From an uncultured Latescibacterota bacterium (GTDB lineage Bacteria > Latescibacterota > UBA2968), in the NCBI GenBank assembly GCA_951812755.1, contig OX638329.1, forward strand, positions 5,355,563 through 5,419,562: DNA of 64,000 nt, given 5' to 3'. The translations under genes were made by a program, and so were the position numbers. Within the stretch, counting starts at the first letter, position 1, and every line of letters begins with the position of its first letter. Below the pieces are notes generated by a model that worked only from the letters and a program-made list of their open reading frames with translations, ran no database searches and was not told where the DNA came from. Shown here piece after piece: positions 23,593-48,154 of this stretch.

Positions 23593-23600
23593 CAACCAAA

Positions 23601-23607
23601 TTAAGAA
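23601..23607. repeat. Target-site duplication TTAAGAA, left copy (transposon family B, copy 1)
   Basis: An identical 7-mer flanks the element on the right at 23855-23861. Confidence 0.7.
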
Positions 23608-23854
23608 CTGACGTTACGCATAGGTAGAATATAATGGGCCTGTCATTCTGAGCCTTTCGGCTACGCTCAAGATAAACTCCGCGCAGCGGAGTCGAAGGAG
23701 CGGGGTACAACTGGCCGGTGAACGAGCCTGAAAAGCGGCTCGTTGTACACCATCCTCAGGCTAGTTCATCTCTTACCAACACAGGTGGAACAGATGCTTC
23801 GGCTCCGTTTCACTCCGCTCAGCATGACAAAAACCCAAACCTGCGTAACATCAG
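23608..23854 (+). mobile_element. Miniature inverted-repeat transposable element (MITE-like), family B copy 1, 247 bp
   Basis: 13-bp terminal inverted repeats (CTGACGTTACGCA … TGCGTAACATCAG) flanked by a 7-bp direct repeat TTAAGAA. A second copy with different flanks lies at 59989-60211. It has internal hairpins and no ORF of meaningful size. Confidence 0.8.
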
Positions 23855-23871
23855 TTAAGAAGGAAAAAGAG

Positions 23872-24711: not shown

Positions 24712-24812
24712 AATTTCTAATGACACTTTTGGCTGAGGATGAAAACACAACCATGACATCATGCACTAAACCTCGACCAGCTATTCCCCATCCTGATACG
24801 GGAGGACATGTA
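24690..24812 (+). pseudogene. Remnant of a duplicated ABC ATPase gene (two segments homologous to 21727-21790 and 22049-22110, joined by an internal deletion)
   Basis: …ETLLKFLMTLLAED(E/Q)NT… followed by …LNLDQLFPILIREG… and then the permease ATG, mirroring the ATPase-permease junction at 22108. Confidence 0.75.
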
Positions 24813-26279
24813 ATGGGTATTCTTCCCTTTTTCACATTTTTGCGAAGCCCTGTTTACATTATCATCGCATTTTTTGCATATCTGTTGCTCGCTCACGTCT
24901 GGATGTCTTCCCAAGCAGATCGGATCTCTGTCTTCGTTTTGTTTTTCTTTATTGAATTTTGGGGCGGGACTATCGGCAGTATGGTAGGAGAGAACCAGTA
25001 TCGGATGCTCACATGGACCCTGCCACATTTTCGCAAGCGTCTGATGATGTGGTCGGCAATAGTCGGACTATTTTCCATTGTAGCCTGGACAGATGCGCTA
25101 ACTTATGCACCTCTCAATGCGTCCTGGTCAACGATTTTGCTGTTGAATCTGGGCCTCTATTGTATCGGATTTGCCTTTTCAGGAGGTTGGAGTTTTGGTA
25201 TCCAGCACCCCGGGTTGGCTTCTGTGTGCCGGGGCCTCATCGTGTTTCTGGGACTGGCATCAGCCTATTTTTGGCAAGAGGTGCTCGCTTTTGGAGAGCA
25301 ACAAAAGTTGGGGTTGGCTCTCATCGCATTCGCCATCGCAATTGGAACTTATCATTTCGCCTTTAACCAGACAACTTTTCGGAGGAAGCCATTCTCTTTG
25401 GTTCTTCCACTGCGCTTAACCCTTTTTCCCCAAACCCGGGAGTTTTGGGAAAGGAATGCAATGAACAGGCGAAAGCCGAGTACCAGAATATGGCATCTCG
25501 ATCACGTCGGTACAGGCATCGTCAATTGGCTGCGTGCCGGTCAGTATGAAAATTCTGGTCTGGGTGGGTGGAGATGGCCACTTTCCGCGTTTACTGCAGT
25601 ATCAGCAATGGTGTTTTTTTTTCTTGGCATGATAACGTCTATGTTCGGGTTGTCGGATCGATCTCCGTACGATTTTGAGACCGTCTTGAAAATGATTTAT
25701 CATATGATTTTTTATTTTAACCAGTTGGACTCCAAGGTCACCGGGGATATATTCGCTGCCGTATTTTTCGGCATTTGTATGTATATTTTTATTTCTCCTA
25801 TTTCACTTAAAAAAGGGTACGTCTATCCGCTTTCTCGCACCCAGCGGATGTGGATTCGGTATAGCAGTTTGCTGGTGCAAAATATTTCTTTTTTTGCAGC
25901 GTCTATTCTGATATTGGGGGTTCTGGGCATCCTGGCGGGGGCAAAGATCGGGTTTGTGTCTGAAGGGGATATTTCCCTGAGAATACTCTGTGTCCTGGGG
26001 TGGTGGGTCGTTCTTTTACCGCTATTGCAGTGGTTGCAAGTCAAATATGACCTGTATGATTTTCAAAGAACGCGGCAACAGGTATGGGGGATGGCTTGTC
26101 TGATCCTGATCCTGATTTTGTCTCTTGGATTCACTGGTTTTACCAGTCTGATGCGTGTCCGCTATCCCGATTTGATGCTGACCTATGAAGCGCCGATCCT
26201 TTTTCTCTCTTTTATTCTGTTGCAATGGTTTCTATTGAATCGGCTCAAACGGTATTATGCCACACAGGACCTGATTTAG
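24813..26279 (+). CDS. Polytopic membrane protein, paralog of 22108-23592
   Basis: 488 aa from ATG 24813. Colinear with the upstream permease at about 70% identity. The ORF-track extension to 24705 corresponds to the ATPase remnant. Confidence 0.6.
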   Translation: MGILPFFTFLRSPVYIIIAFFAYLLLAHVWMSSQADRISVFVLFFFIEFWGGTIGSMVGENQYRMLTWTLPHFRKRLMMWSAIVGLFSIVAWTDALTYAPLNASWSTILLLNLGLYCIGFAFSGGWSFGIQHPGLASVCRGLIVFLGLASAYFWQEVLAFGEQQKLGLALIAFAIAIGTYHFAFNQTTFRRKPFSLVLPLRLTLFPQTREFWERNAMNRRKPSTRIWHLDHVGTGIVNWLRAGQYENSGLGGWRWPLSAFTAVSAMVFFFLGMITSMFGLSDRSPYDFETVLKMIYHMIFYFNQLDSKVTGDIFAAVFFGICMYIFISPISLKKGYVYPLSRTQRMWIRYSSLLVQNISFFAASILILGVLGILAGAKIGFVSEGDISLRILCVLGWWVVLLPLLQWLQVKYDLYDFQRTRQQVWGMACLILILILSLGFTGFTSLMRVRYPDLMLTYEAPILFLSFILLQWFLLNRLKRYYATQDLI

Positions 26280-26503: not shown

Positions 26504-29500
26504 ATGTTTGAAAACGGAACGATTCTCGACGAAAGATATCAAATCCAGACGCACCTGGGAACCGGGGGCATGGGCGAAGTCTATCGGGTTTTAGACCTGG
26601 ACCAAAACCAGGCGTGCGCGCTCAAAATTTTGAATACCATGGTGGATCACAAGGCGGTACATCGCCGTTTTCACAGAGAATTTCAAGTGTTGAACAGATT
26701 CCATCACCCGCGCCTGGTCCGCACATACACCTGGGGCTTTGCCGAAGATCGCCCTTATTTTACGATGGAATATTTACCCGGAAAGACATTGGAAAAAGTA
26801 ATTGCCGATCATGCGCTATTAGGGCAATTCCAGGCTTCGTACTTTTTTCCCCTGATGGAACAACTTGCCGAAGGATTGGCATATATCCACGCGCAGGGTG
26901 CGGTACATCGCGATCTCAAACCATCCAATATTATGGTATTGGAAACAGAAGAGGGGATCAAGATCACGATCCTGGATATGGGACTGGCGAAACTCCGACA
27001 TCTGCATAGTGCCTCCATTACGCAGACGGGCACAGCCATTGGCACGGCAGAATATATGTCACCAGAGCAAGGTAAGGGATTATGGGTAGATCATCGATCA
27101 GATTTGTACTCATTGGGCATAATTTTATACGAGATGCTCACGGGCACACCGCCTTTTTCGGGACAAAATCCCATATCTGTTATTATGAAGCACATTCGAG
27201 AGATACCGCCCTCAATGGGCGAAATCAATATCGCTGTTCCTGATGAGATACAACAAATTGTGTTGAAGTTGCTGGCAAAGGAGCCTGTTGATCGTTTTCA
27301 GTCCGCAGACGAAGTATTGCGTGCCTTACCATCGGAGTTTGTGCTACCGGATGACGAGCAGCGCGATGTGCATAGAAAAGTTATGCGGCCGCAATTTATC
27401 GGGCGCGAATCCGAAATGAAGACATTGCGCGCAATGTTGCAGGATGTACAGGCTGGCGAACAGCGCGTGATTCTAATCTCCGGTGAATCTGGTGTGGGAA
27501 AAACGAGATTGGTTGAAGAACTATTGGGCGATGCGCTAATCCATGACTTTCTGTGTTTGAAAAGCGCAGGCCAGGAAGAGGGTGGACAAATATACGGTGC
27601 GTTGATTGATGCTTTTCAAGGAACGACGGATTTGGTTAGAAGGGAAACAGACAAGTTTTCTGTTATGGAGCGTTGGTTGCAGTTATTAAAAAGTCTGCGA
27701 CAGAAACAGCCCATCGTGTTGTGTTTAGAAAATATTCAATGGCTTGACGAATTGACCCTGGAATTTTTGCAGTATGTATTACGCGATCCAGACCCGTGTC
27801 CGTTTTTGTTATGTCTGACCTGTCAATGGTCCAACCTGGAACCGCTTTCAGAGGAAATTAAAAATTTTATACACAGTAATGAATTTGCCGAGGCGACCCG
27901 GATTCAGTTGGAGAATCTACCGCGTAAAGAGATGGGGTATTTAGCAGCGTCGATGTTGGGGGAGCGATCCATACCTCGAGATGCATTGCAAACCCTGTTC
28001 AGAGAAACGGGTGGGCAACCCCTGTTTGTCGTAGAGGCTGTGAGGACACTGGTGAATGCCGATGTGGTTCGGCAGAATGTATTTGGCGATTGGCAGTGGG
28101 GAGAATTTCCCCAAACATTATTATCCGATGATATTTCAGAGATTTTGCACAGACGCATAGCTACCCTGCCTGCTGTGCAACAGCGAGTGCTGGAATACGC
28201 CTGTGTTTTTCTCAATGATTTTTCTTTTGACTTATTGGCTGCGGTTTGGCGCGGTGATGAGTTGGAATTGTTGGATGTGCTGGACGACCTGATTGCAGAA
28301 GGGCTTTTAGCCGCCTGTGGAGAGGCTGAAGATCGATATCGTTTTTCACAGGGTCTGTATCGGCGGGCAATTTACGATCGCATGCAAAATGTGCGGCGAC
28401 GGCTGTTGCATCGAGAAATTGGCAATGCTTTGGAAAAGATGGATGATGCAGAAGAATTGACAGAAGAATTGGCGGATCATTTTGCGGCGGCGAAAGAACA
28501 AGATAAAGCTATAAAATATACGCGTCTATCAGGCAAAAAAGCATTGGAGGTACAAGCGTATCGCCAGGCATTGAGACGGTTTGAGGCTGTGCGAGGCTGG
28601 ACATCAGATGACGCTTTTGAATCACCTGCAGATACCATCGTTTTTTTATGCGATTATGCAAACGTTTTACGCTGTTGTAGTCAGCACAATAGCGCACTGG
28701 AACTTTTAGACGAGGCAAAAGCGTTATTGCCCGATAATCGGAAAGATTTAAAGGCGCGTATTTTGTGGAATGAAGGCATTATTCACAGCGTACTTCAACA
28801 TGGGAAAGTAGCAGAAGAATATATGCTGGAGGCATTGCGATTTTACCGGGAATTGGGTGATCTCGACGGAGAAATTCAGGCGTTGGGGAGTTTGGCTCAT
28901 TTATGCGATGTGTCTGAGCGTCACGAAGAAGCGATTGCATATATGTGTCGAGAAATAGAGAAATATGCTGCTCTGGGAGAAGCCCAGAACAAGGCTATTG
29001 TACAAGTCCGAGAAGGTATGGTTGCATTGGTGGAATTTCGATTTGGGACGGCCAAAGTACACCTAAAAGCGGCTGTAAAAACATCTCAGAAATTGGGACT
29101 TGAACACCATCGCATTGGAGCACTCAATTTACTTTTAAGAGTTTATTTTTATTCAGGTGATCTCGACCAAGCAGAAGCCGTTTGCCACGAAGTCATTGGT
29201 GAGTGGCAGAAGCGAGGCATTGTGTATTGGGAGGCAATGAATTTTCTCCGGTTGGGAGAATTGGCTCTGGAACGCGATGGTTTTTCAGAAGCATTGGAAT
29301 ATGCCGAGACCTCAGCAGAGCGATTTTTGGAAACACCGCGAAGAGATTACGTCTATCGCGCTTATGCGATAGCAGCAACGGCTGCTGCGAGAATGGGAGA
29401 TACAGAGACAGCTCTTGAATGGGCAGAAAGAGCCAGTGAAGGTGTGCAACAAACATCGGGTATGTACACGGGCATATTGCCCCTGGTGTATTGTGGTATA

Positions 29501-31297
29501 GGTGTTGCTTTAGACAAAGCAGGGCGAATTGCTGAGGCTGAAGAGGCTTTTGAGCAGGCTATTGAATGCCGGGGAGAATCTAAAGGCGATCACTGGGCGC
29601 GTGCGCTGCTGATGGCTGGGGAGTTTTATCTCGAGCGCGATGATATGGCAAAAGCGCAAGCCCATCTCGAAGCGGCAAAACAGGCGTTTGGAGAAATGGA
29701 AATGTCCTATTTTTTGGAGAAAACACAGATGTTATTAAATCAATTATCTCGCGACAAAGATGGTCGCGGCAGAAATGCCGCACTTAGCTCTGAGATTTCA
29801 GTCGATACGTTGTCTGTTGATCGCTGGCGCTTGCTTTACGATGTGAGCAGGGAATTGACAACAGAGCGCGATGTCAAAGTGTTATTGGATCGAACTTTGG
29901 GTAACTTGTTGGTTGTCTATCCAGCAGAGCGAGTACTTATTGCGGTGAAAAATGAGACCCCAAAAAGCTTTGTGGTTGATGCGGTACGTTACCACAATGT
30001 AGAAGCAGATGATGCGGAAGCACTGAGCCGGGGTATTATTCGTCGGGTTATTGAAACAAATGAACCCGTTTTGAGCGTTGATGCTCAGACAGACGACAGG
30101 CTAAATCAATATCAAAGCGTGATGGACTACAATATTCGGTCTGTATTGTGCGTACCCCTATTTCATGTTAGCGAAGGTGTGATGGGTGCACTGTATGTGG
30201 ATCATCGCGGCATTGACAACGCATTTTCTGAAGCAGATCAGACGTTTTTACAGGCATTTGCGAATCTGGTGGGGGTGGCACTGGTCAATGCGAGAATGTA
30301 TGAACAATTAGAAGATAAAGCGCGATATTTGCAGCAAGAGGTCGAAAGACAGTACCAGCTTGACGACCTGGTCGGGCAAAGTGATGCTATGCAGACGATC
30401 TACTATCTTATCGAACGCGCTTCACAAAGTGATATACCCGTGCTTGTGCAGGGCGAAACAGGTACAGGCAAAGAATTGGCGGCGCGTGCCATACACTACA
30501 ATAGCAGACGCAAAGACCAGCCATTTTTGTCTCAAAATTGTGCCGCACTATCACCAGAGTTGTTGCAAAGTGAGTTGTTCGGACACAAAAAAGGGGCGTT
30601 TACTGGCGCGACAGCAAATCACACGGGGATTTTTGAAGCAGCCAATGGCGGTACGGTTTTTTTAGATGAAATCGCCGATGCTTCACCACAGTTGCAAAGG
30701 AGCTTGTTGCGGGTGTTGCAAGAGGGTGAGATTCGGCGCGTGGGAGAAACAGAGGATCGCGCAGTGGATGTACGCATTATTGCAGCGACCAATCAAGACT
30801 TAAAAAAAGAAGTAGAAAACAGATCCTTCCGCGAAGATTTGTATTACCGATTGCATGTGATTCAGATCAATATGCCGCCTTTGCGAGAACGCATTGAAGA
30901 TGTGCCATTATTGGCTGAACATTTGCTCATTCGGGCAAAAGAAGATGCAAACAAGTCGGTTGGGGGACTGACAGTAGGTGCGATAAAGGTGCTTGTAAGT
31001 TACAACTGGCCTGGCAATGTGCGCGAGTTGGAGAATGAGATTCGGCGTGCAATTGCATTGGCAGAGCCAGATAGTGAAATTACGCCCGATTTGTTTTCAG
31101 AATCCATTGGGCACACAGTGTCAGATATCCCTGTCGAATCCCAGGGACGTTTACAAGACCGTGTTCAGGAGTATGAAAAACGAGTGATTCGAGACGCGCT
31201 CGAGAAATGTGTGGGCAATATTACGCATACGGCTAAAGAACTGGGAATAACGCGCGCTGGCCTGCAGAAAAAGATCAATCGTTTGGGGTTGAGATAG
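26504..31297 (+). CDS. Giant sigma-54-dependent transcriptional activator fused to a Ser/Thr protein kinase. Domain order: kinase, P-loop NTPase, TPR repeats, GAF domain, sigma-54 AAA+ activator domain, Fis-type HTH
   Basis: Kinase motifs GTGGMGEVY, HRDLKPSN, DMG and SPE. P-loop GESGVGKTRL. TPR-like helical repeats. GAF region. sigma-54 module GETGTGKELAARAIH, ESELFGHKKGAFTGA and GTVFLDEI. C-terminal HTH TAKELGITRAGLQKKI. Probable start ATG at about 26504 (MFENGTILDERYQ); the track ORF starts at 26318. Confidence 0.8.
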   Translation: MFENGTILDERYQIQTHLGTGGMGEVYRVLDLDQNQACALKILNTMVDHKAVHRRFHREFQVLNRFHHPRLVRTYTWGFAEDRPYFTMEYLPGKTLEKVIADHALLGQFQASYFFPLMEQLAEGLAYIHAQGAVHRDLKPSNIMVLETEEGIKITILDMGLAKLRHLHSASITQTGTAIGTAEYMSPEQGKGLWVDHRSDLYSLGIILYEMLTGTPPFSGQNPISVIMKHIREIPPSMGEINIAVPDEIQQIVLKLLAKEPVDRFQSADEVLRALPSEFVLPDDEQRDVHRKVMRPQFIGRESEMKTLRAMLQDVQAGEQRVILISGESGVGKTRLVEELLGDALIHDFLCLKSAGQEEGGQIYGALIDAFQGTTDLVRRETDKFSVMERWLQLLKSLRQKQPIVLCLENIQWLDELTLEFLQYVLRDPDPCPFLLCLTCQWSNLEPLSEEIKNFIHSNEFAEATRIQLENLPRKEMGYLAASMLGERSIPRDALQTLFRETGGQPLFVVEAVRTLVNADVVRQNVFGDWQWGEFPQTLLSDDISEILHRRIATLPAVQQRVLEYACVFLNDFSFDLLAAVWRGDELELLDVLDDLIAEGLLAACGEAEDRYRFSQGLYRRAIYDRMQNVRRRLLHREIGNALEKMDDAEELTEELADHFAAAKEQDKAIKYTRLSGKKALEVQAYRQALRRFEAVRGWTSDDAFESPADTIVFLCDYANVLRCCSQHNSALELLDEAKALLPDNRKDLKARILWNEGIIHSVLQHGKVAEEYMLEALRFYRELGDLDGEIQALGSLAHLCDVSERHEEAIAYMCREIEKYAALGEAQNKAIVQVREGMVALVEFRFGTAKVHLKAAVKTSQKLGLEHHRIGALNLLLRVYFYSGDLDQAEAVCHEVIGEWQKRGIVYWEAMNFLRLGELALERDGFSEALEYAETSAERFLETPRRDYVYRAYAIAATAAARMGDTETALEWAERASEGVQQTSGMYTGILPLVYCGIGVALDKAGRIAEAEEAFEQAIECRGESKGDHWARALLMAGEFYLERDDMAKAQAHLEAAKQAFGEMEMSYFLEKTQMLLNQLSRDKDGRGRNAALSSEISVDTLSVDRWRLLYDVSRELTTERDVKVLLDRTLGNLLVVYPAERVLIAVKNETPKSFVVDAVRYHNVEADDAEALSRGIIRRVIETNEPVLSVDAQTDDRLNQYQSVMDYNIRSVLCVPLFHVSEGVMGALYVDHRGIDNAFSEADQTFLQAFANLVGVALVNARMYEQLEDKARYLQQEVERQYQLDDLVGQSDAMQTIYYLIERASQSDIPVLVQGETGTGKELAARAIHYNSRRKDQPFLSQNCAALSPELLQSELFGHKKGAFTGATANHTGIFEAANGGTVFLDEIADASPQLQRSLLRVLQEGEIRRVGETEDRAVDVRIIAATNQDLKKEVENRSFREDLYYRLHVIQINMPPLRERIEDVPLLAEHLLIRAKEDANKSVGGLTVGAIKVLVSYNWPGNVRELENEIRRAIALAEPDSEITPDLFSESIGHTVSDIPVESQGRLQDRVQEYEKRVIRDALEKCVGNITHTAKELGITRAGLQKKINRLGLR

Positions 31298-31308
31298 GCG
31301 GTGAACAG

Positions 31309-31347
31309 GTGCATCCAGATGTATGCAGTGCATCCTGGCGGATGCAC
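31309..31347. promoter_or_regulatory. Upstream activator sequence: perfect 20-bp palindrome GTGCATCC-TGGC-GGATGCAC (31328-31347), overlapped by a degenerate third copy (31309-31328)
   Basis: Read directly from the sequence. About 200 bp upstream of the sigma-54 promoter. Confidence 0.7.
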
Positions 31348-31408
31348 TTTGTCTATCCTTATATAATTCAGATAGTTGTGCTTATTTTCTTTAAATAGGC
31401 GATCATAA

Positions 31409-31428
31409 GTGCATCCTATCGGATGCAC
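31409..31428. promoter_or_regulatory. Upstream activator sequence: second perfect 20-bp palindrome GTGCATCC-TATC-GGATGCAC
   Basis: Has the same half-sites as 31328-31347 and lies 81 bp downstream of it. An AT-rich tract follows, plausibly bendable or IHF-binding. Confidence 0.7.
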
Positions 31429-31537
31429 TTACACCTGAATCTCGCAGGTGTAGCACAAATAATCCTTAATTTTTATCTCTTTGTTTTTCAAGCACTTGAG
31501 AATTTTCATGTGCTTTTTTTTTGCTGAGACGATTTTG

Positions 31538-31552
31538 GGCACGGATCTTGCA
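31538..31552 (+). promoter_or_regulatory. sigma-54 (RpoN) promoter GGCACG-N4-TTGCA
   Basis: Exact match to the -24 GG / -12 GC consensus (tGGGCACGgatcTTGCAtc) with correct spacing, about 55 nt upstream of the small peptide ATG. Confidence 0.75.
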
Positions 31553-31608
31553 TCATAAAAAGGGCAAACCGTTATGGCACAGGATTTTTCCATTATAAGG
31601 AGGATAAC

Positions 31609-31788
31609 ATGGCAACACGACGCAAATTGACTTTGGTCAACGGTGCAATAGATCAAGAAGGTAGCATTCTTATGTATCAGACTGTAAAGAGTGTAGAGGT
31701 TCACTGCGAGCCTTATACTTTTGCTGTTCCCCTCCTTCCCTTCCCCGATAATGATCCCGATTGGGACGATTTTGATCAGTCTGAGTAA
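31609..31788 (+). CDS. Small peptide (59 aa), candidate RiPP precursor (MATRRKLTLVNGAIDQEGSILMYQTVKSVEVHCEPYTFAVPLLPFPDNDPDWDDFDQSE)
   Basis: Missing from the track (below 60 aa). Excellent SD AAGGAGG 6 nt upstream of the ATG. Sits between a sigma-54 promoter and a radical-SAM/SPASM gene. Basic N-terminus, single Cys, Pro-rich and acidic C-terminus. Confidence 0.7.
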   Translation: MATRRKLTLVNGAIDQEGSILMYQTVKSVEVHCEPYTFAVPLLPFPDNDPDWDDFDQSE

Positions 31789-31816
31789 ATCATCTCTATT
31801 TTAAGGAGTACTTGAC

Positions 31817-33253
31817 ATGCTATGCATTCAGAAATGCGAAATGCATCTTTTTCAAACGGAAGAACAAAAACAGCCGATTGTCTATCAGACTGAGACAGGT
31901 CTGTTTTTTACACTGGATACCCTTTTCCAGGCGATTTTAGCGTGTTGCGAGGGGCTGTCCGATTCTCAGGTTGTTCAGAGGTTGACCGATCAATACGAGG
32001 CAGAGGAAGTTGTCGAGGCTATCGAGGAATTGGCTCAGGTGGGTTTGATTTCGGATGGTGCTCTACCTGTGGTATCCAATGTGCCGACAACAGAAGGGGT
32101 GGCAGCCTGCGGCGTATCGCAGACTGATCGTTTGCAGGTGTCGTTGCACGTTTCGCATACGTGCAATATTCAGTGTGCTTATTGCTTTGCCCACGGCGGG
32201 GATTACGGCGGTAAGGCGATGCTGATGCAACCGGACGTTGCCGAGCAAGCGATACGCTGGATCATCTCCGAGGCTCAGGTGTTCGGACGGTGCCAGATCG
32301 ATTTTTTTGGCGGGGAACCGCTTCTGAATTTTCCGCTGATGCAGAAGCTGGTGCCGTTTGCCAAATCCCTGGGAGCGCGATTGGGTGTGCAGGTTGGTTT
32401 TGGCATTGTGACCAATGGCACCTTGTTGACCGACGAGATGAAGCAGTTTTTGGTTAATAAAAAGTTTCAGATTAAGGTCAGCCTGGATGGTGGACGTAAG
32501 ACACAGGACCGCATTCGCAAGTTTCACAATGGTTCTGGTACTTATGATGTTGTGGCAAAGAATGTAAAGAAATTGACTGCTGAGGCACCTGAGCGCGTGT
32601 ATTTGCAGGCTGTTATGACAGCTTATGACCTGAACGAGGATCAGATTGCCGATGAGTTGCGTTCGCTGGGTACTGAAAATGCGCTCATCGGTCCGGCGGT
32701 TGTCTCCCCCGATAAACCTTATGCTGTTCGAGAAGAACACATACCCGCTTTGAAGCAACAAATTCACAAGCGGAGCCGGCACGCGCTCAAAGCTATTCTA
32801 AATGGTGAAGAGGGTGAAGATGAAGAGTTTGATCCGAGGATTCAAAAACTTTTGACGCGCCAAAAATCTTGTCACGGATGCCTCGGCGGTAAGCAGTATT
32901 TGGCAATTGCAGCGGACGGGTCGATTTATTTTTGCTCGAGCTTAGCCGACGCGCCCGAGTTTAAGATGGGTGATGTGTTTGCGGGTATTGATCGCGAAAA
33001 GCAGCAGTATTTTGACGCGCAGTTCAATGTGAATAATCGTCCTGAGTGCAAAACGTGCTGGGCGCGCAATTTGTGTGGTGGCGGATGTCTTTGGGAGGCA
33101 CGGACAACAACGGATGATCCAATGTCTCCGAACCCGGTTTATTGTGAACAGACGCGCTATCGCTATGAACTGGCAATGGAGATGTGTATGGAGATAGCAG
33201 AAACGGATGCGTCTTTGTTGCAGCGACGATATGATCTGGAAGTGGTATCATAA
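31817..33253 (+). CDS. Radical SAM/SPASM-domain peptide-modifying enzyme with an N-terminal RRE-like extension (sactipeptide/ranthipeptide-maturase-like)
   Basis: CNIQCAYC (CxxxCxxC) radical-SAM cluster motif. C-terminal Cys-rich SPASM region (CHGC…FCSS…CKTCWARNLCGGGC). A roughly 110-aa N-terminal domain resembling the RiPP recognition elements of sactisynthases. SD aaggag upstream. Confidence 0.8.
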   Translation: MLCIQKCEMHLFQTEEQKQPIVYQTETGLFFTLDTLFQAILACCEGLSDSQVVQRLTDQYEAEEVVEAIEELAQVGLISDGALPVVSNVPTTEGVAACGVSQTDRLQVSLHVSHTCNIQCAYCFAHGGDYGGKAMLMQPDVAEQAIRWIISEAQVFGRCQIDFFGGEPLLNFPLMQKLVPFAKSLGARLGVQVGFGIVTNGTLLTDEMKQFLVNKKFQIKVSLDGGRKTQDRIRKFHNGSGTYDVVAKNVKKLTAEAPERVYLQAVMTAYDLNEDQIADELRSLGTENALIGPAVVSPDKPYAVREEHIPALKQQIHKRSRHALKAILNGEEGEDEEFDPRIQKLLTRQKSCHGCLGGKQYLAIAADGSIYFCSSLADAPEFKMGDVFAGIDREKQQYFDAQFNVNNRPECKTCWARNLCGGGCLWEARTTTDDPMSPNPVYCEQTRYRYELAMEMCMEIAETDASLLQRRYDLEVVS

Positions 33254-33287
33254 GCAAATAAGTTCTGATGAAAACCTGGTATCCAAT

Positions 33288-33345
33288 ACGGCATCCAAAT
33301 AGGGATGATAACGCCCTGTTAGATGCCGTTTATTTTGCTTTTTGG
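33288..33345 (+). terminator. Probable intrinsic terminator after the radical-SAM gene
   Basis: Long hairpin acggcatcc…ggatg…gatgccgt followed by ttattttgcttttt. The stem contains GCATCC/GGATG half-site-like sequences. Confidence 0.5.
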
Positions 33346-34349
33346 GTGGAATTCTCGTGGAAGAAATATATCAATCAAAAAAATCCGGCCTCGATAAATG
33401 GCCGCTCATTGGACAGCACCCCATACTCTTAGACGTGCAAAAGCGTGCGTACCGCGTGGCGAATAGCGAATTACCCGTCAACATCAGTGGAGAGACTGGC
33501 ACGGGCAAGGAATTGCTCGCCCGTTATATCCACGGCATTAGCCACCGCAACAGAGGACCATTTGTAACCGTTGACTGCGGCCTCCTCTCTTCTGAAATGG
33601 CGCGCAGCGAGTTATTTGGACATGTTCGAGGTGCTTTTACTGGCGCCAGCCAAACGCGCACCGGACTGGTTGAATCTGCCCACGGCGGTACGCTATTCTT
33701 CGATGAAGTAGGCGAATTGCCAGCCAATCTTCAGTTGCAATTGCTACGCCTGGTACAGGAACAGGAATTTCGCCGCATAGGCGAAGTATCCATGCGCCGG
33801 TCCGATGTGCGCCTGATCACTGCGACACACTGCAACTTGAAAAAAATGATGCGAACAGGAACTTTCCGAGAAGACCTCTATTACCGCTTAACTGTCGTAC
33901 CCCTGTATTTGCCACCCTTGCGGAAGCGACTGAGCGATTTGCCACTTTTGATCACGCATTTTTGCAAAAGTATGAAAGGATACACGCGCGCGTTTTCCCC
34001 CGAAGTAATTCAAAGGATGTCGCATTATGCCTGGCCTGGCAATGTTCGGGAACTACAAAACGAAGTCGCCCGATTGATGGTCATGAGCGAAGGGAAAATT
34101 ATCCGAGTATCCGACCTGCACCCTCGCATTCGGGGATCCAAACCCGAGGTTGATGTATTTGACCTCCCATTTAAGGAAGCCAGGCAACTGGCAAACAGCC
34201 GATTTATGCGGGAGTATCTCGACAGAGCTTTGCAGCGAACACAGGGCAATGTAACCCAGGCAGCGCAACAATGCGGGATTGGCCGACAGTACTTCCAGTT
34301 GCGTATGTCCGAGTACGGTCTGAAGTCGGCATTTTACAAGAAAAAATAA
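33342..34349 (+). CDS. sigma-54-dependent transcriptional activator lacking an N-terminal sensory/receiver domain (PspF/HrpR-like AAA+ plus HTH only)
   Basis: 335 aa. GETGTGKELLARYIHG, ELFGHVRGAFTGA, a GAFTGA loop, C-terminal Fis-type HTH. Non-ATG start (TTG 33342 or GTG about 33357). Confidence 0.8.
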   Translation: MGGILVEEIYQSKKSGLDKWPLIGQHPILLDVQKRAYRVANSELPVNISGETGTGKELLARYIHGISHRNRGPFVTVDCGLLSSEMARSELFGHVRGAFTGASQTRTGLVESAHGGTLFFDEVGELPANLQLQLLRLVQEQEFRRIGEVSMRRSDVRLITATHCNLKKMMRTGTFREDLYYRLTVVPLYLPPLRKRLSDLPLLITHFCKSMKGYTRAFSPEVIQRMSHYAWPGNVRELQNEVARLMVMSEGKIIRVSDLHPRIRGSKPEVDVFDLPFKEARQLANSRFMREYLDRALQRTQGNVTQAAQQCGIGRQYFQLRMSEYGLKSAFYKKK

Positions 34350-34376
34350 TGCCTCGCGGTGTACTAAAAAACGTCA

Positions 34377-37300
34377 ATGGAAAAACTCATTGACGTTTTT
34401 ACTTGCAGGACGTTTCTTGAGCTTATCATGCAATACATCGCCGACATACACCTGCACTCGCGTTTTGCCCGCGCAACCAGCAAAACCTTGAACCCCGAAA
34501 ACCTGTATCGGTGGAGCCTCATCAAAGGTCTAACCGTGGTAGGCACCGGAGATTTCACCCATCCCGTATGGTATGAAGAACTGCGCGACCAGCTCGAACC
34601 AGCCGAAGAAGGACTATACCAATTGCGACCAGACCTCAGGCGAGGTATCGACGCCGAATTGCCACCAGCCTGCCGCGGACAAATGCGATTTGTACTCTCC
34701 GTCGAAATCAGCCTCATCTACAAAAAAAACGACAAAACCAGAAAAATACATCACGTCGTCACAATGCCAAATTTTGACGCCGTAGCGCGTTTGAACGCGC
34801 GACTCGGTGCAATAGGCAATCTGAAATCGGACGGACGCCCCATCCTCGGCCTGGACAGCCGGGACCTGGTAGAAATTTGTCTGGAAGCGTGTGACGAGGT
34901 ACTCTTTATACCCGCGCACATCTGGACCCCTCATTTTGCGGTCCTGGGTGCAAGTTCCGGGTTCGACACCCTCGAAGAATGTTTTGAAGACATGCTGCCC
35001 CACATCTTCGCCGTAGAAACCGGCCTGTCTTCCGACCCACCGATGAACTGGCGCCTATCCATGCTGGACAACTACGCAATCGTCTCCAATTCAGACGCAC
35101 ATTCCCCGCAAAAGCTCGCCCGCGAAGCCACCTGCTTCAATACCGAATTATCCTTCCGCGGAATGTATAACGCATTAAAAGACCGCGACCCAACGCGCTT
35201 TACGGGCACTCTGGAATTTTATCCCGAAGAAGGCAAATATCACTTCGACGGACACAGAAAATGCGATATATGCTGGAAACCCGCACAAACCCTCGACGCA
35301 GACGAAATCTGCCCGGTATGTAACCGCAAATTGACCGTTGGCGTACTCCACCGCGTTGAAAAACTCGCTGACCGCGCAGAAGGCGACCGCCCCGATGTCG
35401 CGATGCCCTTTGAAAATCTGATCCCACTGCCAGAAATCATCGGCTCAGTCCTCCAGGTGGGACCCACCAGCAAACGCGTACAAACCGTGTACGAACAAAT
35501 GCTCGCAACACACGGAGCAGAACTAAAAATCTTGCGCCAACTGCCCATCGCAGAAATAGCCAAAACCGGAGACCCCCTCATCGCCGAAGGCATTCGACGC
35601 ATGCGCGAAGGCACAGTTCACATCGATCCGGGATACGATGGCGTGTACGGAAAAATTCAAGTCTTCTCCGACGAAGACCGCGCACTCCTGAGCGGACAGG
35701 AATCGCTATTTCACATACCAGCCGCAGAGCCTTTCAGGGACAAAGCTGAGACCGCGCGTCCAAATAAAAGTACAAAAGCCGCGGCGGACGCCCCTTTCAC
35801 ACTTCACACTTCTCACTTCTCACTTCTCACTTCACACCAGCAAGCAGCCGTAACAATGGAAAAAGGTCCCGTAATCGTAACAGCGGGACCCGGCACCGGA
35901 AAAACCCGAGTACTCACCCATCGCGTAATCGACCTGATCCAGAACCGCGGCGTATCACCCGCTTCTGTAATGGCCGTAACATTCACCAACCGCGCCGCAA
36001 CTGAAATGTGGGAACGCATCGTATCACTATCCTCCGGAGGCGAAGAACTGGTCCCCATGCGCGTAGGCACATTCCACCGCCTATCATTAGACCTCTTGCG
36101 AGAATATGCCCCCGAACGCCTGGGCGCAATTGCCGACCGAGGAGAAGCCCGCGCCGTCTTACAGGAAGTAATCGCCGACATCGACACCGAAATATCGGTT
36201 GATGACGCGCTCTCCCAGATCTCACTATGCAAAGCCCATGGACATGAAATATCCGACATCACCGACACCGAACTTCAAACCATTTACACAAATTATCAAC
36301 AACGCCTCACCGCTTATGGCCTGATGGACTTTGACGACATCTTGCTCATACTCCACGATGTACTCTGCGGCGATATTCTACAGACAGTGCAAGCGCGTTT
36401 CTCCCATGTACTCGTCGATGAATTTCAAGATGTCAACGCCATACAATACGCACTGATTCAAAAATTGGCCGGGGATGGATCGGGCCTCTTCGTCATAGGC
36501 GATCCCGATCAAGCCATCTACGGTTTTCGAGGCGCGAGCGCGGAATATTTTGAACAGTTAAAAACGAACTTTCCCAAAACAAACGAAGTCATCTTACAGC
36601 ACACATTTCGCTCCACCCCTCAGATTATCTCCGCAGCATCCAGTCTGCTTCGCGGACGATCGTACGATCCCGTGCGAGAAAACGGCCCGAACCTGAGAGC
36701 CTTATCCACACCCGGCGAAACTGGCGAAGGCATCGCCATAGTAGAAGAAATCTCTCGGATGGTCGGCGGCGCAGACCTATTGCAAGCCAACGAAGAAGGC
36801 AAACGCAGCCTGGACGACTTCGCCATCTTGTTCCGCACCGGACGCCAGGCAGACGCCCTGGAAACGTGCTTCTTACAGGCCGGGATCCCCTATCGCGTCG
36901 TCGGCCAGAAAAATTATCTGGATGCGGCTTCGGTACAGCACGCCCTATCGTTTTTTAAGTGTGTCCTGAGAGATGACATTTCCAGCGTCCCAATCACCAG
37001 AGACATGATCGACCTCCTCTCCATCCCCGCATTTGACCCCGGCCGGGAAGCGCGCGCATCAATACGCCAACAAATTCAAGACAACGCACTATCAGACACT
37101 GTACAGGAAAAATTGGACGCCGCGATGGAAGCTGTGAATCGCTTCCGCAATGAAACATCCCACTTATCACCCGCTGAACTCATCGCGAAGTGGGCAGACG
37201 AATTTGCGACATCAAACGATATCGACCTCGAGCGATTGGGCCTATTGGCTCAGAGCGTGGATTCCATCGCAGAGCTATTGGAAATCATCACCCTCGGACA

Positions 37301-37655
37301 GGATGGCGACTTTGTGCGTCGTGGAAAAATTGCGCGTCCCGAAGCCGTCACGCTCATGACCTTGCATGCGTCTAAGGGCCTGGAATTCCCCGTGGTATTT
37401 ATCTGTGGGGTTGAGGAAGGATTGATACCGCATGCCGAAGCGGATATCGAAGAAGAGAAACGCCTGTTTTTTGTCGGTATAACCCGCGGACAAGACGAAG
37501 TGATCTTAACCCGCGCCCGAAGCCGCAGGCGATTTGGCGAACGCATTGCGCCCGAGATATCGCGCTTTGTCACCGACATACCCGAAGACATCATCGACTT
37601 TGTCGATCTGCGAACCCAAAGACGCAAACCCGCCGAACAATTATCCCTGTTTTAA
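34377..37655 (+). CDS. Fusion protein: N-terminal Endonuclease-Q-like PHP-domain nuclease with zinc finger, low-complexity linker, C-terminal UvrD/PcrA-type superfamily-1 DNA helicase
   Basis: N-terminus YIADIHLHSRFARATS…GTGDFTHP (PHP/TIGR00375/EndoQ-like) and a CDICW…CPVCNRKL zinc ribbon. Linker PFTLHTSHFSLLTSHQ encoded by a (cacttct)n microsatellite at about 35795-35830. Helicase motifs TAGPGTGKTRVL (I), VDEFQDVN (III) and HASKGLEFPVVF (VI). Confidence 0.75.
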   Translation: MEKLIDVFTCRTFLELIMQYIADIHLHSRFARATSKTLNPENLYRWSLIKGLTVVGTGDFTHPVWYEELRDQLEPAEEGLYQLRPDLRRGIDAELPPACRGQMRFVLSVEISLIYKKNDKTRKIHHVVTMPNFDAVARLNARLGAIGNLKSDGRPILGLDSRDLVEICLEACDEVLFIPAHIWTPHFAVLGASSGFDTLEECFEDMLPHIFAVETGLSSDPPMNWRLSMLDNYAIVSNSDAHSPQKLAREATCFNTELSFRGMYNALKDRDPTRFTGTLEFYPEEGKYHFDGHRKCDICWKPAQTLDADEICPVCNRKLTVGVLHRVEKLADRAEGDRPDVAMPFENLIPLPEIIGSVLQVGPTSKRVQTVYEQMLATHGAELKILRQLPIAEIAKTGDPLIAEGIRRMREGTVHIDPGYDGVYGKIQVFSDEDRALLSGQESLFHIPAAEPFRDKAETARPNKSTKAAADAPFTLHTSHFSLLTSHQQAAVTMEKGPVIVTAGPGTGKTRVLTHRVIDLIQNRGVSPASVMAVTFTNRAATEMWERIVSLSSGGEELVPMRVGTFHRLSLDLLREYAPERLGAIADRGEARAVLQEVIADIDTEISVDDALSQISLCKAHGHEISDITDTELQTIYTNYQQRLTAYGLMDFDDILLILHDVLCGDILQTVQARFSHVLVDEFQDVNAIQYALIQKLAGDGSGLFVIGDPDQAIYGFRGASAEYFEQLKTNFPKTNEVILQHTFRSTPQIISAASSLLRGRSYDPVRENGPNLRALSTPGETGEGIAIVEEISRMVGGADLLQANEEGKRSLDDFAILFRTGRQADALETCFLQAGIPYRVVGQKNYLDAASVQHALSFFKCVLRDDISSVPITRDMIDLLSIPAFDPGREARASIRQQIQDNALSDTVQEKLDAAMEAVNRFRNETSHLSPAELIAKWADEFATSNDIDLERLGLLAQSVDSIAELLEIITLGQDGDFVRRGKIARPEAVTLMTLHASKGLEFPVVFICGVEEGLIPHAEADIEEEKRLFFVGITRGQDEVILTRARSRRRFGERIAPEISRFVTDIPEDIIDFVDLRTQRRKPAEQLSLF

Positions 37656-47815: not shown

Positions 47816-48154
47816 GATAACCCTCCCCCGTTACAAGTAGAACGAATTAAAAACTATTAACCCATTAGACACACCAGAAAAATAATGGGGTGGAAAGTTT
47901 CCACCCAAAAAGAAAGCAATTTCTGTGCCAAAATTCTCTTCTCTATATTTTACAATCAGTTATGAAATTTGTGTCCTGAGCGCAGTTTAATAAGTGTCCG
48001 ATTTTGATACAGTGGTGTCCGAAAATGAACACCTAAAATAAAAATCAGGCACATTGTTTTGATCTCAATGTGCCTGCTGTATTACCCACAGAACTATTAT
48101 TTATTAGAATGGATTCAAAGTTTTTAGTCATGCCTCCATTACCTGGATTGACGA

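What the first reader, a model, noticed from the sequence alone, without database searches (positions are those of the whole stretch)
31300..34349. Sigma-54-controlled small-peptide and radical-SAM/SPASM operon: a candidate new RiPP-like system
A 59-aa ORF that is absent from the ORF track has a near-perfect Shine-Dalgarno (AAGGAGG-N6-ATG). It lies 55 nt downstream of a canonical sigma-54 promoter (GGCACG-N4-TTGCA at 31538-31552). It is followed 28 nt later by a 478-aa radical-SAM enzyme with a CxxxCxxC cluster motif, a C-terminal SPASM Cys-rich domain, and a roughly 110-aa N-terminal extension resembling RRE precursor-binding domains. Precursor-plus-rSAM/SPASM adjacency is the hallmark of sactipeptide/ranthipeptide-type RiPP loci. 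This peptide has one Cys, a Pro-rich middle and a strongly acidic tail (PDNDPDWDDFDQSE), which fits no family I recognise. Sigma-54 enhancer-binding proteins flank the operon on both sides. Strict sigma-54 control of a RiPP-like operon by two dedicated activators is unusual.
Basis: partly seen in the sequence, partly recalled or inferred. Interest (0 to 1): 0.9.

Follow-up and report, generated by a model that had tools for sequence, protein, structure and literature searches.

The report
Sigma-54-gated peptide plus radical-SAM maturase module
A small conserved peptide gene sits next to a radical-SAM enzyme that most likely cross-links it, and both are switched on by a giant dedicated sensor-regulator; this looks like a previously uncatalogued modified-peptide system from uncultured Latescibacterota-type bacteria, interesting but of a known general kind.

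Summary
The 59-aa ORF (31609-31788), its Shine-Dalgarno, the -24/-12 sigma-54 promoter (31538-52) and the 478-aa rSAM/SPASM gene (31817-33253) are all present.

- **Peptide family:** it is real, with 184 relatives at E<=0.01. In 118 close ones the leader, one Cys and VPxxPFP-polyAsp are near-invariant, around a hypervariable 6-residue cassette. dN/dS is below 1.
- **Enzyme:** it has an RRE-like N-domain, CxxxCxxC and a full SPASM motif. It is closest to CteB, QhpD, the nif11 maturase and PapB (all peptide maturases; three proven thioether formers) but scores below every curated cut-off. It is far from anSME.
- **Conserved module:** across four clades (rSAM identity down to 41%) it is a giant kinase-STAND-TPR-GAF-sigma54 activator, then palindromic upstream sites, a hairpin with a T-run, the promoter, the peptide and the rSAM.
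- **Regulator pairing:** two paralogous modules on one contig carry matched changes in the palindrome and in the activator's HTH. This points to the big activator as the cognate regulator. The small second activator is lineage-specific.

Verdict: a new RiPP-like precursor/maturase family (ranthipeptide-like, single Cys) with a dedicated sigma-54 circuit. Chemistry, export and biological role are untested. Interest is moderate to high, not 0.9.

The parts
26504..31297 (+). Giant sigma-54 activator (EBP1): Ser/Thr kinase, AAA16/STAND NTPase, TPR, GAF, AAA+ (GAFTGA), Fis-type HTH. The ORF is open from 26318. The probable start is ATG 26504.
   Evidence: Pfam domains. NCBIfam hits to NifA/NorR-like regulators and TIGR03903 (TOMM kinase/cyclase fusion, 297 bits). 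GAFTGA. The start is inferred from homologue N-termini. An activator of this architecture lies directly upstream of the peptide/rSAM pair in every locus whose upstream DNA was recovered.
31309..31428 (.). Three palindromic upstream activator sites, GTGCATCC-N4-GGATGCAC, at 31309-31328 (degenerate), 31328-31347 and 31409-31428. They lie about 110-240 nt upstream of the promoter, with an AT-rich stretch between them.
   Evidence: these are the only three matches in the 64-kb window. They are conserved in 8 close loci. They co-vary with the EBP1 HTH between paralogous modules L096 and L097 on one contig. They are kept in L091, which lacks the small activator.
31490..31522 (+). Hairpin followed by a T-run immediately upstream of the -24 element. 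It looks like an intrinsic terminator that would insulate the promoter from read-through from EBP1.
   Evidence: Fold gives -10 kcal/mol, z = -2.5. The same hairpin-plus-T-run-then-promoter arrangement occurs in close loci and in distant clades L003, L081, L083, L085, L094 and L095. The function is inferred.
31537..31552 (+). Sigma-54 promoter, GGGCACGGATCTTGCA (-24 GG at 31538-39, -12 GC at 31550-51).
   Evidence: GGCACG and TTGC are invariant in 8 close loci. Equivalent elements occur in other clades and in the L096 paralogue.
31597..31603 (+). Shine-Dalgarno AAGGAGG, 5 nt before the ATG.
   Evidence: AAGGAG is conserved in all close loci.
31609..31788 (+). Precursor peptide, 59 aa. Leader 1-31 (MATRRKLTLVNGxIDQEGSI..Y). 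Invariant Cys33. Hypervariable positions 32, 34 and 36-39 around Cys33. Invariant V40-P41-x-x-P44-F45-P46. Poly-Asp/aromatic acidic tail.
   Evidence: column statistics on 118 peptides. for dN/dS. for the cross-clade alignment, where only M1, one Asn of the leader and the Cys are invariant.
31817..33253 (+). Radical-SAM/SPASM peptide maturase, 478 aa. It has an RRE-like N-terminal domain (about 1-80), an rSAM core (CxxxCxxC at 116-123) and a SPASM domain (C355, C373, C411/414/420/424, C443).
33288..33343 (+). Hairpin plus T-rich tail between the rSAM gene and the small activator. It may be an attenuator or partial terminator.
   Evidence: Fold gives -27 kcal/mol, z = -2.9. It is present in L086 and L088 and deleted in L089, where the two genes abut. 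The function was not tested.
33342..34349 (+). Small sigma-54 activator (EBP2). It has an AAA+ domain (GAFTGA) and an HTH only, with no sensory domain (PspF-like architecture). The start codon is uncertain.
   Evidence: It is lineage-specific. The start-codon problem and the A7/A5 tract are shown.
34367..34400 (+). Strong terminator-like hairpin plus T-run after EBP2. It is the probable end of the peptide-rSAM-EBP2 transcription unit.
   Evidence: Fold gives -16.1 kcal/mol, z = -5.0, with 0 of 200 shuffles as stable.

Best explanation
This is a self-contained RiPP-type module.

**Peptide and enzyme.** The 59-aa peptide is the precursor. Its conserved N-terminal leader (L-x-L-[IV]-N-G...G-x-I) is bound by the RRE-like winged-helix domain at the N-terminus of the adjacent radical-SAM/SPASM enzyme. 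The enzyme cleaves SAM at its CxxxCxxC cluster and abstracts a hydrogen from a residue of the peptide. With the help of its two auxiliary SPASM clusters it most likely joins the single invariant Cys33 to that carbon. The product would be one intramolecular thioether ring, ranthipeptide- or sactipeptide-like. The ring would enclose the hypervariable cassette and possibly reach the conserved acidic residues, as in QhpD/PapB Cys-Asp/Glu links.

**Regulation.** Transcription starts at a sigma-54 promoter that is silent by default. It is opened by the giant upstream activator (kinase-STAND-TPR-GAF-AAA+-HTH) bound to three palindromes 110-240 nt upstream. A terminator-like hairpin shields the promoter from read-through. 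In the window's lineage a small sensor-less activator is probably co-transcribed downstream.

**Shown by sequence or comparison:** the parts, their conservation, the enzyme's family neighbourhood, and the UAS/HTH co-variation.

**Inferred:** leader-RRE binding, thioether chemistry, the acceptor residue, which signal the activator senses, and the fate and function of the product.
For: **Peptide is real and selected.**
- 184 relatives at E<=0.01.
- In 118 close ones Cys33, L7, L9, N11, G12, P41, P44, F45 and P46 are 100% conserved and D49-51 at least 95%. Positions 32, 34 and 36-39 carry 7-15 residue types. 103 of 118 peptides have exactly one Cys.
- dN/dS is 0.24-0.67, with the leader at 0.04-0.5, against 0.10-0.13 for the enzyme. 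Peptide dN is 3-7 times higher than enzyme dN.
- Cross-clade peptides keep the leader Asn, the Cys and a C-x-[WYP]-[PN]-x-F / Pro-rich motif.

**Enzyme.**
- The best NCBIfam hits are all peptide maturases (SCIFF 260, QhpD 254, nif11 252, PapB 231 bits); SCIFF, QhpD and PapB are proven thioether formers. anSME scores only 117.
- CteB (5wgg) matches at E=5e-59 over residues 21-454.
- The AF2 model (pLDDT 85.8) matches CteB over 464 columns at E=1.9e-31.
- PqqD/RRE hits occur in 15 of 34 members.
- All rSAM and SPASM cysteines are invariant.

**Regulation.**
- The promoter, UAS and hairpin are conserved.
- The palindrome is unique to this spacer in the window.
- Two modules on one contig differ symmetrically in the palindrome (TGCA to TGTA/TACA) and in the EBP1 recognition helix.
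- The kinase-EBP, small ORF and rSAM triad is kept from 92% down to 41% rSAM identity.
- Both activators carry GAFTGA.
Against: - No experiment of any kind supports the model.
- The enzyme scores below the trusted cut-off of every curated maturase family. Thioether chemistry is therefore extrapolated from neighbours at about 30% identity.
- A single Cys gives at most one link. Conserved aromatics and prolines next to it would also fit C-C or other cross-links.
- No protease or exporter is conserved with the module across clades, so the product's maturation and destination are unknown.
- rpoN was not seen in the 64-kb window and could not be checked in the genome.
- The most distant clade (L085) lacks a clean -12 GC.
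- Most close loci are only 8-11% diverged in the enzyme. Part of the intergenic conservation (82-87% identity) could be shared ancestry, although synonymous sites have diverged more (dS 0.2-0.5).
Confidence: 0.68

Rival explanations
1. Same precursor/maturase pair, but the enzyme installs a non-thioether modification. Candidates are a C-C or C-O cross-link on the conserved aromatic/Pro motif (cyclophane-, streptide- or daropeptide-type) or an epimerisation. The Cys would serve another role.
For: - The enzyme is below the cut-off of all thioether families.
- The residues after the Cys are aromatic- and Pro-rich in all clades (C-x-[WYP]-[PN]-x-F).
- W52 and F55 are 82-94% conserved in clade I.
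- rSAM/SPASM enzymes with RREs catalyse many cross-link types (reviews PMC8326336 and PMC9055067, listed).
Against: - The Cys is the only core residue invariant across all clades.
- The top five HMM matches and the nearest solved structure are peptide maturases, CteB, QhpD and PapB being proven thioether formers. Cyclophane, streptide-type and dynobactin families score far lower, below 96 bits.
Confidence: 0.17
2. The peptide is the precursor of a redox cofactor or an enzyme subunit (PQQ-, mycofactocin- or QhpC-like), not a free peptide product.
For: - QhpD is the second-best HMM hit (254 bits).
- No exporter or protease is conserved with the module.
- A two-gene peptide + rSAM/SPASM + RRE layout also typifies the PqqA/D/E and MftA/B/C cores (established knowledge).
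Against: - The score is below the QhpD cut-off of 453. PqqE and MftC score far lower, and they appear only among the hits to the paralogous second rSAM genes.
- No qhpA/B/E/F/G, pqqB/C or mftD/E/F-like genes lie in the window or in any related locus.
- A hypervariable cassette next to the reactive Cys is the opposite of what an invariant cofactor precursor shows.
- Some genomes carry two diverged modules.
Confidence: 0.06
3. The small ORF is a regulatory or fortuitous upstream ORF. The rSAM enzyme would act on an unlinked substrate, as an anSME-like enzyme or an 'orphan' maturase.
For: - NCBIfam holds an 'orphan maturase' model (not_ScfB), which hits at 235 bits.
- FGE-sulfatase-family genes lie near two related loci.
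Against: - The score is far below cut-off for not_ScfB (855) and anSME (349).
- The enzyme has an RRE-like domain.
- The peptide is conserved at the protein level with synonymous drift and has a strong SD.
- The adjacency survives to 41% enzyme identity.
Confidence: 0.05

Closest known systems
SCIFF / ranthipeptide pairs (ScfA-ScfB; CteA-CteB, PDB 5WGG)
   Same: - A two-gene precursor + rSAM/SPASM maturase unit with no dedicated protease or exporter.
- The maturase has an N-terminal RRE, a CxxxCxxC cluster and a full SPASM domain.
- It is the best HMM, sequence and fold match.
- In CteA/Tte1186a only one thioether was found experimentally (PMC8326336).
   Different: - 260 bits against a trusted cut-off of 425, and about 30% identity.
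- The precursor is unrelated in sequence and has one Cys, not six in about 45 residues.
- It occurs in Latescibacterota/Gemmatimonadota-labelled MAGs, not Clostridia.
- It is tied to a sigma-54 promoter and a giant kinase-EBP.
QhpD-QhpC (quinohemoprotein amine dehydrogenase maturation) and PapB-PapA (freyrasin)
   Same: - Second- and fifth-best HMM matches (254 and 231 bits).
- These enzymes make Cys-S to Asp/Glu C-beta/C-gamma links (PMC8326336).
- All peptide clades here keep acidic residues downstream of the Cys.
   Different: - Scores are below the cut-offs (453 and 340).
- There are no QHNDH genes.
- There is no CX3D repeat, and a single Cys lies 14-18 residues from the Asp run.
TOMM-system kinase/cyclase fusion regulator (TIGR03903) and the large Ser/Thr kinase beside NHLP-Burk precursors
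   Same: - A giant Ser/Thr-kinase + STAND/TPR protein is encoded next to RiPP precursors. EBP1 hits TIGR03903 at 297 bits.
- Haft et al. 2010 note the large Ser/Thr kinase in such clusters (PMC2887384).
   Different: - The score is below the cut-off of 706.
- The output domain here is GAF-AAA+-HTH (a sigma-54 activator) instead of a cyclase.
- The partner chemistry is rSAM, not cyclodehydratase.
Classical sigma-54 activator systems (NifA-type GAF-AAA+-HTH; PspF-type sensor-less activator)
   Same: - The C-terminal 490 residues of EBP1 align to NifA (400 bits).
- EBP2 is AAA+ plus HTH only, like PspF.
- Both have GAFTGA, palindromic UAS about 100-250 nt upstream and a -24/-12 promoter.
   Different: - All scores are below the equivalog cut-offs.
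- The roughly 1,100-residue kinase-STAND-TPR front end is not part of those families.
- The regulated genes are a peptide/maturase pair.
AgrD-type autoinducing-peptide precursors (analogy from general knowledge, not tested)
   Same: The layout is a conserved N-terminal part, a short hypervariable cassette carrying the one invariant Cys, then a conserved acidic C-terminal tail. Several diverged variants occur among close relatives and within one genome.
   Different: - There is no sequence similarity.
- No AgrB/AgrC/AgrA homologues are present.
- The modification enzyme is a radical-SAM protein, and the sensor is cytoplasmic by domain content.

Membership tests
rSAM/SPASM RiPP maturase with RRE (generic class) | CxxxCxxC radical-SAM cluster motif | tested here: met
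   C116, C120 and C123 are invariant in 34 family members. Pfam Radical_SAM at E=7e-16.
rSAM/SPASM RiPP maturase with RRE (generic class) | C-terminal SPASM motif (Gx4C ... Cx2Cx5Cx3C ... C) for two auxiliary clusters | tested here: met
   G368-x4-C373, C411/414/420/424, C443 and C355 are all invariant. Pfam SPASM hits 23 of 34 members. The window protein scores 21.0 against a cut-off of 21.5.
rSAM/SPASM RiPP maturase with RRE (generic class) | N-terminal PqqD-like RiPP recognition element | tested here: met
   PqqD hits occur in 15 of 34 members, best 7.5e-9, with the window protein at 0.005. The AF2 model has a beta3-alpha3 domain at residues 1-80. The sequence alignment to CteB starts at residue 21 and the fold match spans 464 columns. 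Leader binding itself was not tested.
rSAM/SPASM RiPP maturase with RRE (generic class) | Adjacent co-oriented precursor peptide, conserved with the enzyme | tested here: met
   A small ORF with the shared leader/Cys motif lies upstream of the enzyme in all four clades.
SCIFF system (TIGR03974 maturase + six-Cys precursor) | Maturase reaches the TIGR03974 trusted cut-off (425 bits) | tested here: not met
   260.1 bits.
SCIFF system (TIGR03974 maturase + six-Cys precursor) | Precursor with six Cys in about 45 residues | tested here: not met
   The window peptide has one Cys, as do 103 of 118 relatives. No NCBIfam or Pfam model hits the peptide.
QhpD (TIGR03906) | Score at or above 453 bits, and neighbouring QHNDH genes (qhpA/B/C) | tested here: not met
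   254.2 bits. The neighbours are ABC/CPBP genes, activators and a UvrD-type helicase, with no dehydrogenase subunits.
PapB-family ranthipeptide maturase (NF047865) | Score at or above 340 bits, and a precursor with repeated CX3D | tested here: not met
   230.6 bits. There is no CX3D motif.
Anaerobic sulfatase-maturating enzyme (TIGR03942) | Score at or above 349 bits | tested here: not met
   117.2 bits. The Foldseek match to anSME covers only about 378 columns at 20% identity, against 464 columns for CteB.
Ranthipeptide/sactipeptide (chemical class) | Cys sulfur linked to an alpha, beta or gamma carbon of another residue | not testable with these tools
   This needs MS/NMR of the modified peptide. 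It is inferred only from the enzyme's nearest families and the invariant Cys.
Sigma-54-dependent transcription unit | GG-N10-GC -24/-12 element at a suitable distance, conserved among relatives | tested here: met
   It is weak in L081 and absent by this rule in L085.
Sigma-54-dependent transcription unit | Cognate activator with GAFTGA and upstream binding sites | tested here: met
   GAFTGA occurs in both activators. Three palindromes lie upstream. UAS and HTH co-vary in L096 versus L097. Binding itself was not tested.
Sigma-54-dependent transcription unit | rpoN present in the genome | not tested
   No RpoN box occurs in the 64-kb window.
TOMM-system kinase/cyclase fusion (TIGR03903) | Score at or above 705.75 bits with a C-terminal cyclase | tested here: not met
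   297.5 bits over the kinase/STAND part only. The C-terminus is GAF-AAA+-HTH.

The most novel reading that the evidence does not exclude
The triad is a peptide-signalling circuit, not an antibiotic cluster. The rSAM-cyclised peptide would carry a strain- and module-specific hypervariable cassette and would be the ligand of the STAND/TPR sensor of its own giant activator. The activator then fires the sigma-54 promoter of the peptide operon. The result would be an autoinducing, pherotype-like switch, with several orthogonal copies per genome.

Observations that fit this reading:
- The regulator, peptide and enzyme are inherited as a unit in all four clades.
- No exporter or protease is universally linked to them.
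- The cassette is hypervariable between invariant flanks.
- Two modules on one contig carry matched UAS/HTH changes.
- The TPR region of the activator diverges faster than its AAA+ domain (78-83% against 85-94% identity).

None of these observations demonstrates it.
Probability: 0.18. Interest if true: 0.85.

Novelty: new variant of a known kind. Interest (0 to 1): 0.6.

Why it matters
- **A new family in an uncultured phylum.** It would add a precursor/maturase family from a phylum with no cultured producers to the radical-SAM RiPPs. The substrate is unusually simple: one reactive Cys and a 6-residue variable loop between invariant flanks. That simplicity makes it attractive for enzymology and for engineering ring libraries.
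- **A compact regulatory set.** Sensor-activator, operator, insulating hairpin and sigma-54 promoter come together, and natural orthogonal variants exist. This bears on how silent peptide clusters are switched on. It also offers zero-leak expression parts.
- **A possible new signalling architecture.** If the peptide proves to be the activator's own ligand, this would be a new peptide-signalling design built on sigma-54.

Tried and rejected
- **Genome-collection scan with the rSAM alignment.** The degenerate SPASM patterns were swamped by Firmicutes SCIFF maturases.
- **Metagenome scan with the peptide alignment.** 15 pattern matches, none confirmed.
- **First regex for the peptide and promoter in L001-L003.** It was too strict and missed real copies. 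ORF listing and looser scans replaced it.
- **Inverted-repeat scan of distant loci.** Largely uninformative. The palindromes there (for example GCCAAC-N5-GTTGGC twice in L081, TATACAATGTATA-type twice in L003) were read directly from the sequences printed and are only provisional.
- **anSME reading.** Rejected on score and architecture.
- **Defence-system reading.** Rejected, because PADLOC gives only generic rSAM, kinase, AAA+ and UvrD domain hits.
- **Second copy of the peptide in the window.** None found by tblastn.
- **Literature.** No paper combines ranthipeptide with sigma-54. The only paper combining sigma-54, RiPP, radical SAM and precursor peptide is a genome survey of Aneurinibacillus, judged from its title and abstract and not read. 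The Latescibacteria + RiPP hits are general BGC surveys.
- **Co-diversification of the EBP1 sensor with the peptide.** Only a weak trend was seen, so it is not used as evidence.

Full report
**1. The observation**

Reading 31200-34500 and listing ORFs confirms every element.
- AAGGAGG lies at 31597-31603, followed after 5 nt (not 6) by the ATG of a 59-aa ORF (31609-31788).
- GGCACG-N4-TTGCA lies at 31538-31552.
- A 478-aa ORF (31817-33253) starts 28 nt after the peptide stop, behind its own AAGGAG.
- The enzyme has C116-x3-C120-x2-C123 and the canonical SPASM pattern (G368-x4-C373; C411-x2-C414-x5-C420-x3-C424; C443).
- All of these residues are invariant in an alignment of 34 relatives.
- Both flanking ORFs are sigma-54 activators with the GAFTGA loop.

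**2. The small ORF is a real, selected gene**

A single-sequence search found 47 called homologues, all 51-87 aa. A profile built from four clades found 184 at E<=0.01.

In 118 close relatives:
- L7, L9, N11, G12, Cys33, P41, P44, F45 and P46 are 100% conserved.
- V40 is 97% conserved and D49-D51 at least 95%.
- Positions 32, 34 and 36-39 carry 7-15 residue types each (2.2-3.1 bits).
- 103 of 118 peptides have exactly one Cys.

Codon-level comparison of five loci:
- dN/dS is 0.24-0.67 for the peptide and 0.04-0.5 for the leader.
- The neighbouring enzyme shows 0.10-0.13 at similar dS.
- The ORF is therefore translated and constrained, yet its non-leader part evolves 3-7 times faster than its enzyme.

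No Pfam or NCBIfam model matches the peptide.

**3. The enzyme**

- NCBIfam places it among the RRE-bearing rSAM/SPASM peptide maturases: SCIFF maturase 260 bits (cut-off 425), QhpD 254 (453), nif11 maturase 252 (519), 'not_ScfB' 235 (855), PapB 231 (340). SCIFF, QhpD and PapB are proven thioether formers.
- The nearest solved structure by sequence is CteB, at E=5e-59 over residues 21-454.
- An AlphaFold model (pLDDT 85.8) has a beta3-alpha3 domain at residues 1-80, a disordered linker, a TIM-like core and a helical SPASM end.
- The model superposes on CteB over 464 columns, against about 378 for anSME.
- PqqD (RRE) hits occur in 15 of 34 members.
- The protein therefore meets the generic definition of an RRE-dependent rSAM/SPASM maturase. 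It is not a member of any curated equivalog family.

**4. What is conserved around it**

Related loci came from three sources: the rSAM search, a genome scan, and look-ups of enzyme and peptide homologues. They fall into four peptide clades.

- **(I) The window type.** The enzymes are 89-93% identical to the window's.
- **(I') MGFRRRLRPLNG...MCNWPEF...** Enzyme identity is 56%.
- **(II) ...SINA..D..GRI...VC.WP.FP.LPPP...** Enzyme identity is about 51%.
- **(III) ...SC[ES]YNG[FH]NFH...** Enzyme identity is 41%.

In every locus the gene directly upstream is a roughly 1,600-aa protein with the same architecture. That architecture is Pkinase, AAA16/STAND, TPR, GAF, Sigma54_activat, HTH_8. In some long-read assemblies this gene is split by frameshifts. 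A 300-650-nt spacer follows, then the small ORF and the enzyme.

Aligned across clades, only the initiator Met, the leader Asn and the Cys are invariant, with a C-x-[WYP]-[PN]-x-F / Pro-rich motif after the Cys.

What lies downstream varies:
- A sensor-less activator in the window lineage.
- A response-regulator-type activator plus an S8 peptidase in I'.
- A second, paralogous rSAM/SPASM-like gene and/or a GT4 glycosyltransferase in II and III.

No exporter or protease is universal.

**5. The regulatory region**

In eight clade-I loci the spacer is 82-87% identical to the window, while synonymous sites of the flanking genes have dS of 0.2-0.5. The invariant blocks are:
- Three GTGCATCC-N4-G(G/T)ATGCAC palindromes. 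In the window they lie at 31309, 31328 and 31409, and they are the only matches in 64 kb.
- An AT-rich stretch between the palindromes.
- A hairpin with a T-run at 31490-31522.
- The -24/-12 element and the Shine-Dalgarno.

The same order (repeats, hairpin with T-run, TGGTACG-N4-TTGC, Shine-Dalgarno) recurs with different repeat sequences in clade II. It is weaker in I' and has no clean -12 in III.

The strongest evidence comes from one 2.18-Mb contig that carries two complete modules about 550 kb apart:
- L097 has the window's palindrome and the HTH ...THTAKELGITRAGLQKKINRLGLR.
- L096 has GTGTATCC-N4-GTATACAC, a symmetric TGCA to TGTA/TACA change.
- L096's HTH is altered to ...THAAEELGVTRVGLHKKINRLRLR.

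Matched operator and recognition-helix changes in paralogues of one genome argue that the giant activator binds these sites. They also argue that the modules are insulated from each other. L091 keeps the palindromes without any small activator nearby, which points the same way.

**6. The small activator (33342-34349)**

- It is AAA+ plus HTH only.
- It is found downstream in the window and in L086, L088, L089 and L090. It is displaced by inserted genes in L001 and L097. It is absent in L091, L096 and the other clades.
- A hairpin with a T-rich tail (33288-33343) separates it from the enzyme gene. That hairpin is deleted in L089, where the genes abut.
- A strong terminator-like hairpin follows it at 34367-34400 (z = -5).
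- I infer co-transcription with possible attenuation. Its role (feedback, hetero-oligomer or another target) is open.

**7. Mechanism proposed**

- **Shown:** the parts list, the conservation, the family neighbourhood and the UAS/HTH co-variation.
- **Inferred from established knowledge of CteB, QhpD and PapB (PMC8326336):** the RRE binds the leader, 5'-dA radical abstracts a hydrogen from an acceptor residue, and the thiolate of Cys33 forms one thioether.
- **The acceptor is unknown.** Candidates are the cassette itself (position +5 is usually Phe, Ile or Val) or the conserved acidic residues. The acidic residues are the poly-Asp run in clade I and a conserved Glu about 20 residues after the Cys in clade II (my reading).
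- **Expression is gated by sigma-54.** The giant activator's kinase, STAND, TPR and GAF domains integrate an unknown signal.

**8. Comparison and novelty**

- It works like a SCIFF/ranthipeptide pair but fails the membership tests of SCIFF, QhpD, PapB and anSME.
- The regulator resembles Haft's TOMM kinase/cyclase fusion in its front half (297 bits; PMC2887384), but it ends in a NifA-like sigma-54 activator.
- Sigma-54 promoters in natural-product clusters are not rare by prediction (PMC3665592).
- I found no paper linking ranthipeptides or rSAM RiPPs to sigma-54, or describing this family. The peptide matches no model in Pfam or NCBIfam, and the enzyme reaches no curated NCBIfam cut-off.
- I rate it a new variant of a known kind, with interest about 0.6.

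**9. Most novel reading not excluded**

The cyclised peptide could be the ligand of its own activator, giving an autoinducing, pherotype-like sigma-54 switch. The observations that fit are inheritance of the triad as a unit, the hypervariable cassette between invariant flanks, orthogonal paralogues, and a faster-evolving TPR region. I give it a probability of about 0.18.

Noticed in passing
window 33372-33386 (A-run 33374-33380); L001, L086, L088, L089: The 5' end of the small activator gene has a 2-nt length difference in an A-run: A7 in the window and A5 in four independent relatives. Only in the window is a canonical start (TTG 33342 or GTG 33357) in frame with the conserved LIGQHP... N-terminus. 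In the relatives that frame opens right after stop codons with no ATG/GTG/TTG before the Walker A region, so gene callers give a truncated 297-aa product. Yet the region shows synonymous changes. The cause could be a non-canonical start, a frameshift or tract-length switching. It is unresolved.
   Followed up: partly
window 47915-47930 (-), upstream of ORF 45359-47815 (-): A second good sigma-54-type element, TGGCACAGAAATTGCT, lies about 100 nt upstream of a MacB_PCD/FtsX-type ABC permease gene. No activator was identified next to it. The neighbours are an ankyrin-repeat protein and a Reg_prop protein.
   Followed up: partly
window 21215-24711 (+), and 24705-26279: Directly upstream of the giant activator lie an ABC ATPase, a 494-aa protein with no family hit and a CPBP/Rce1-like intramembrane protease (best NCBIfam hit 'ABC permease/CPBP protease'). 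A 524-aa protein with no family hit follows. GntR-ABC-487aa is syntenic in L086, L090 and L091, without the CPBP gene. A CPBP gene also lies near the distant locus L095. These could be export, processing or immunity genes for the peptide, but they are not conserved across clades.
   Followed up: partly
L096 and L097 (ena:ERZ25072076:ctg245857_13x_l, about 1.12 Mb and 1.67 Mb); L082 from the same sample: One 2.18-Mb contig carries two complete activator-peptide-rSAM modules with different cassettes, operators and HTH helices. The L096 enzyme is 93% identical to the window's, although its operator is of the other type. This hints at recombination between modules. A clade-I' module occurs in the same sample on another contig.
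   Followed up: partly
L003 9545-11026; L085 9430-10803; L093 1604-2977; L095 10283-11674: In the more distant clades a second rSAM/SPASM-like paralogue follows the first, often with a GT4 glycosyltransferase. Some paralogues have only a faint radical-SAM core hit. This suggests further tailoring, possibly glycosylation, that the window's module lacks.
   Followed up: partly
window 31490-31522 and equivalents in L003, L081, L083, L085, L094, L095: A hairpin plus a run of 7-9 T sits within 5-25 nt upstream of the -24 element in every clade, whatever the surrounding sequence. I read it as a terminator that insulates the promoter. A role in promoter architecture (a T-tract or bend) is not excluded.
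   Followed up: partly
window 34377-37655 (+): A 1,092-aa UvrD-type helicase has an N-terminal extension of about 480 aa; in homologues that extension hits PF27218 (MJ0043_C). It is syntenic downstream of the small activator in close relatives. Its annotated ATG overlaps the terminator hairpin, so the true start may be later, for example MQYIADIHLH near 34428.
   Followed up: no
L091 10790-11608; L094 13446-14480: FGE-sulfatase-family (formylglycine-generating-enzyme-like) genes lie a few genes downstream of two related modules. This is probably coincidental, but it is worth noting given the anSME-like ancestry of the enzyme.
   Followed up: no
L089 1945-3285 and 15410-16180; L081 9917-13271: DDE transposase genes flank or interrupt several related loci. 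In L089 an insertion sequence splits the kinase end of the activator gene. The region is recombinationally active.
   Followed up: no
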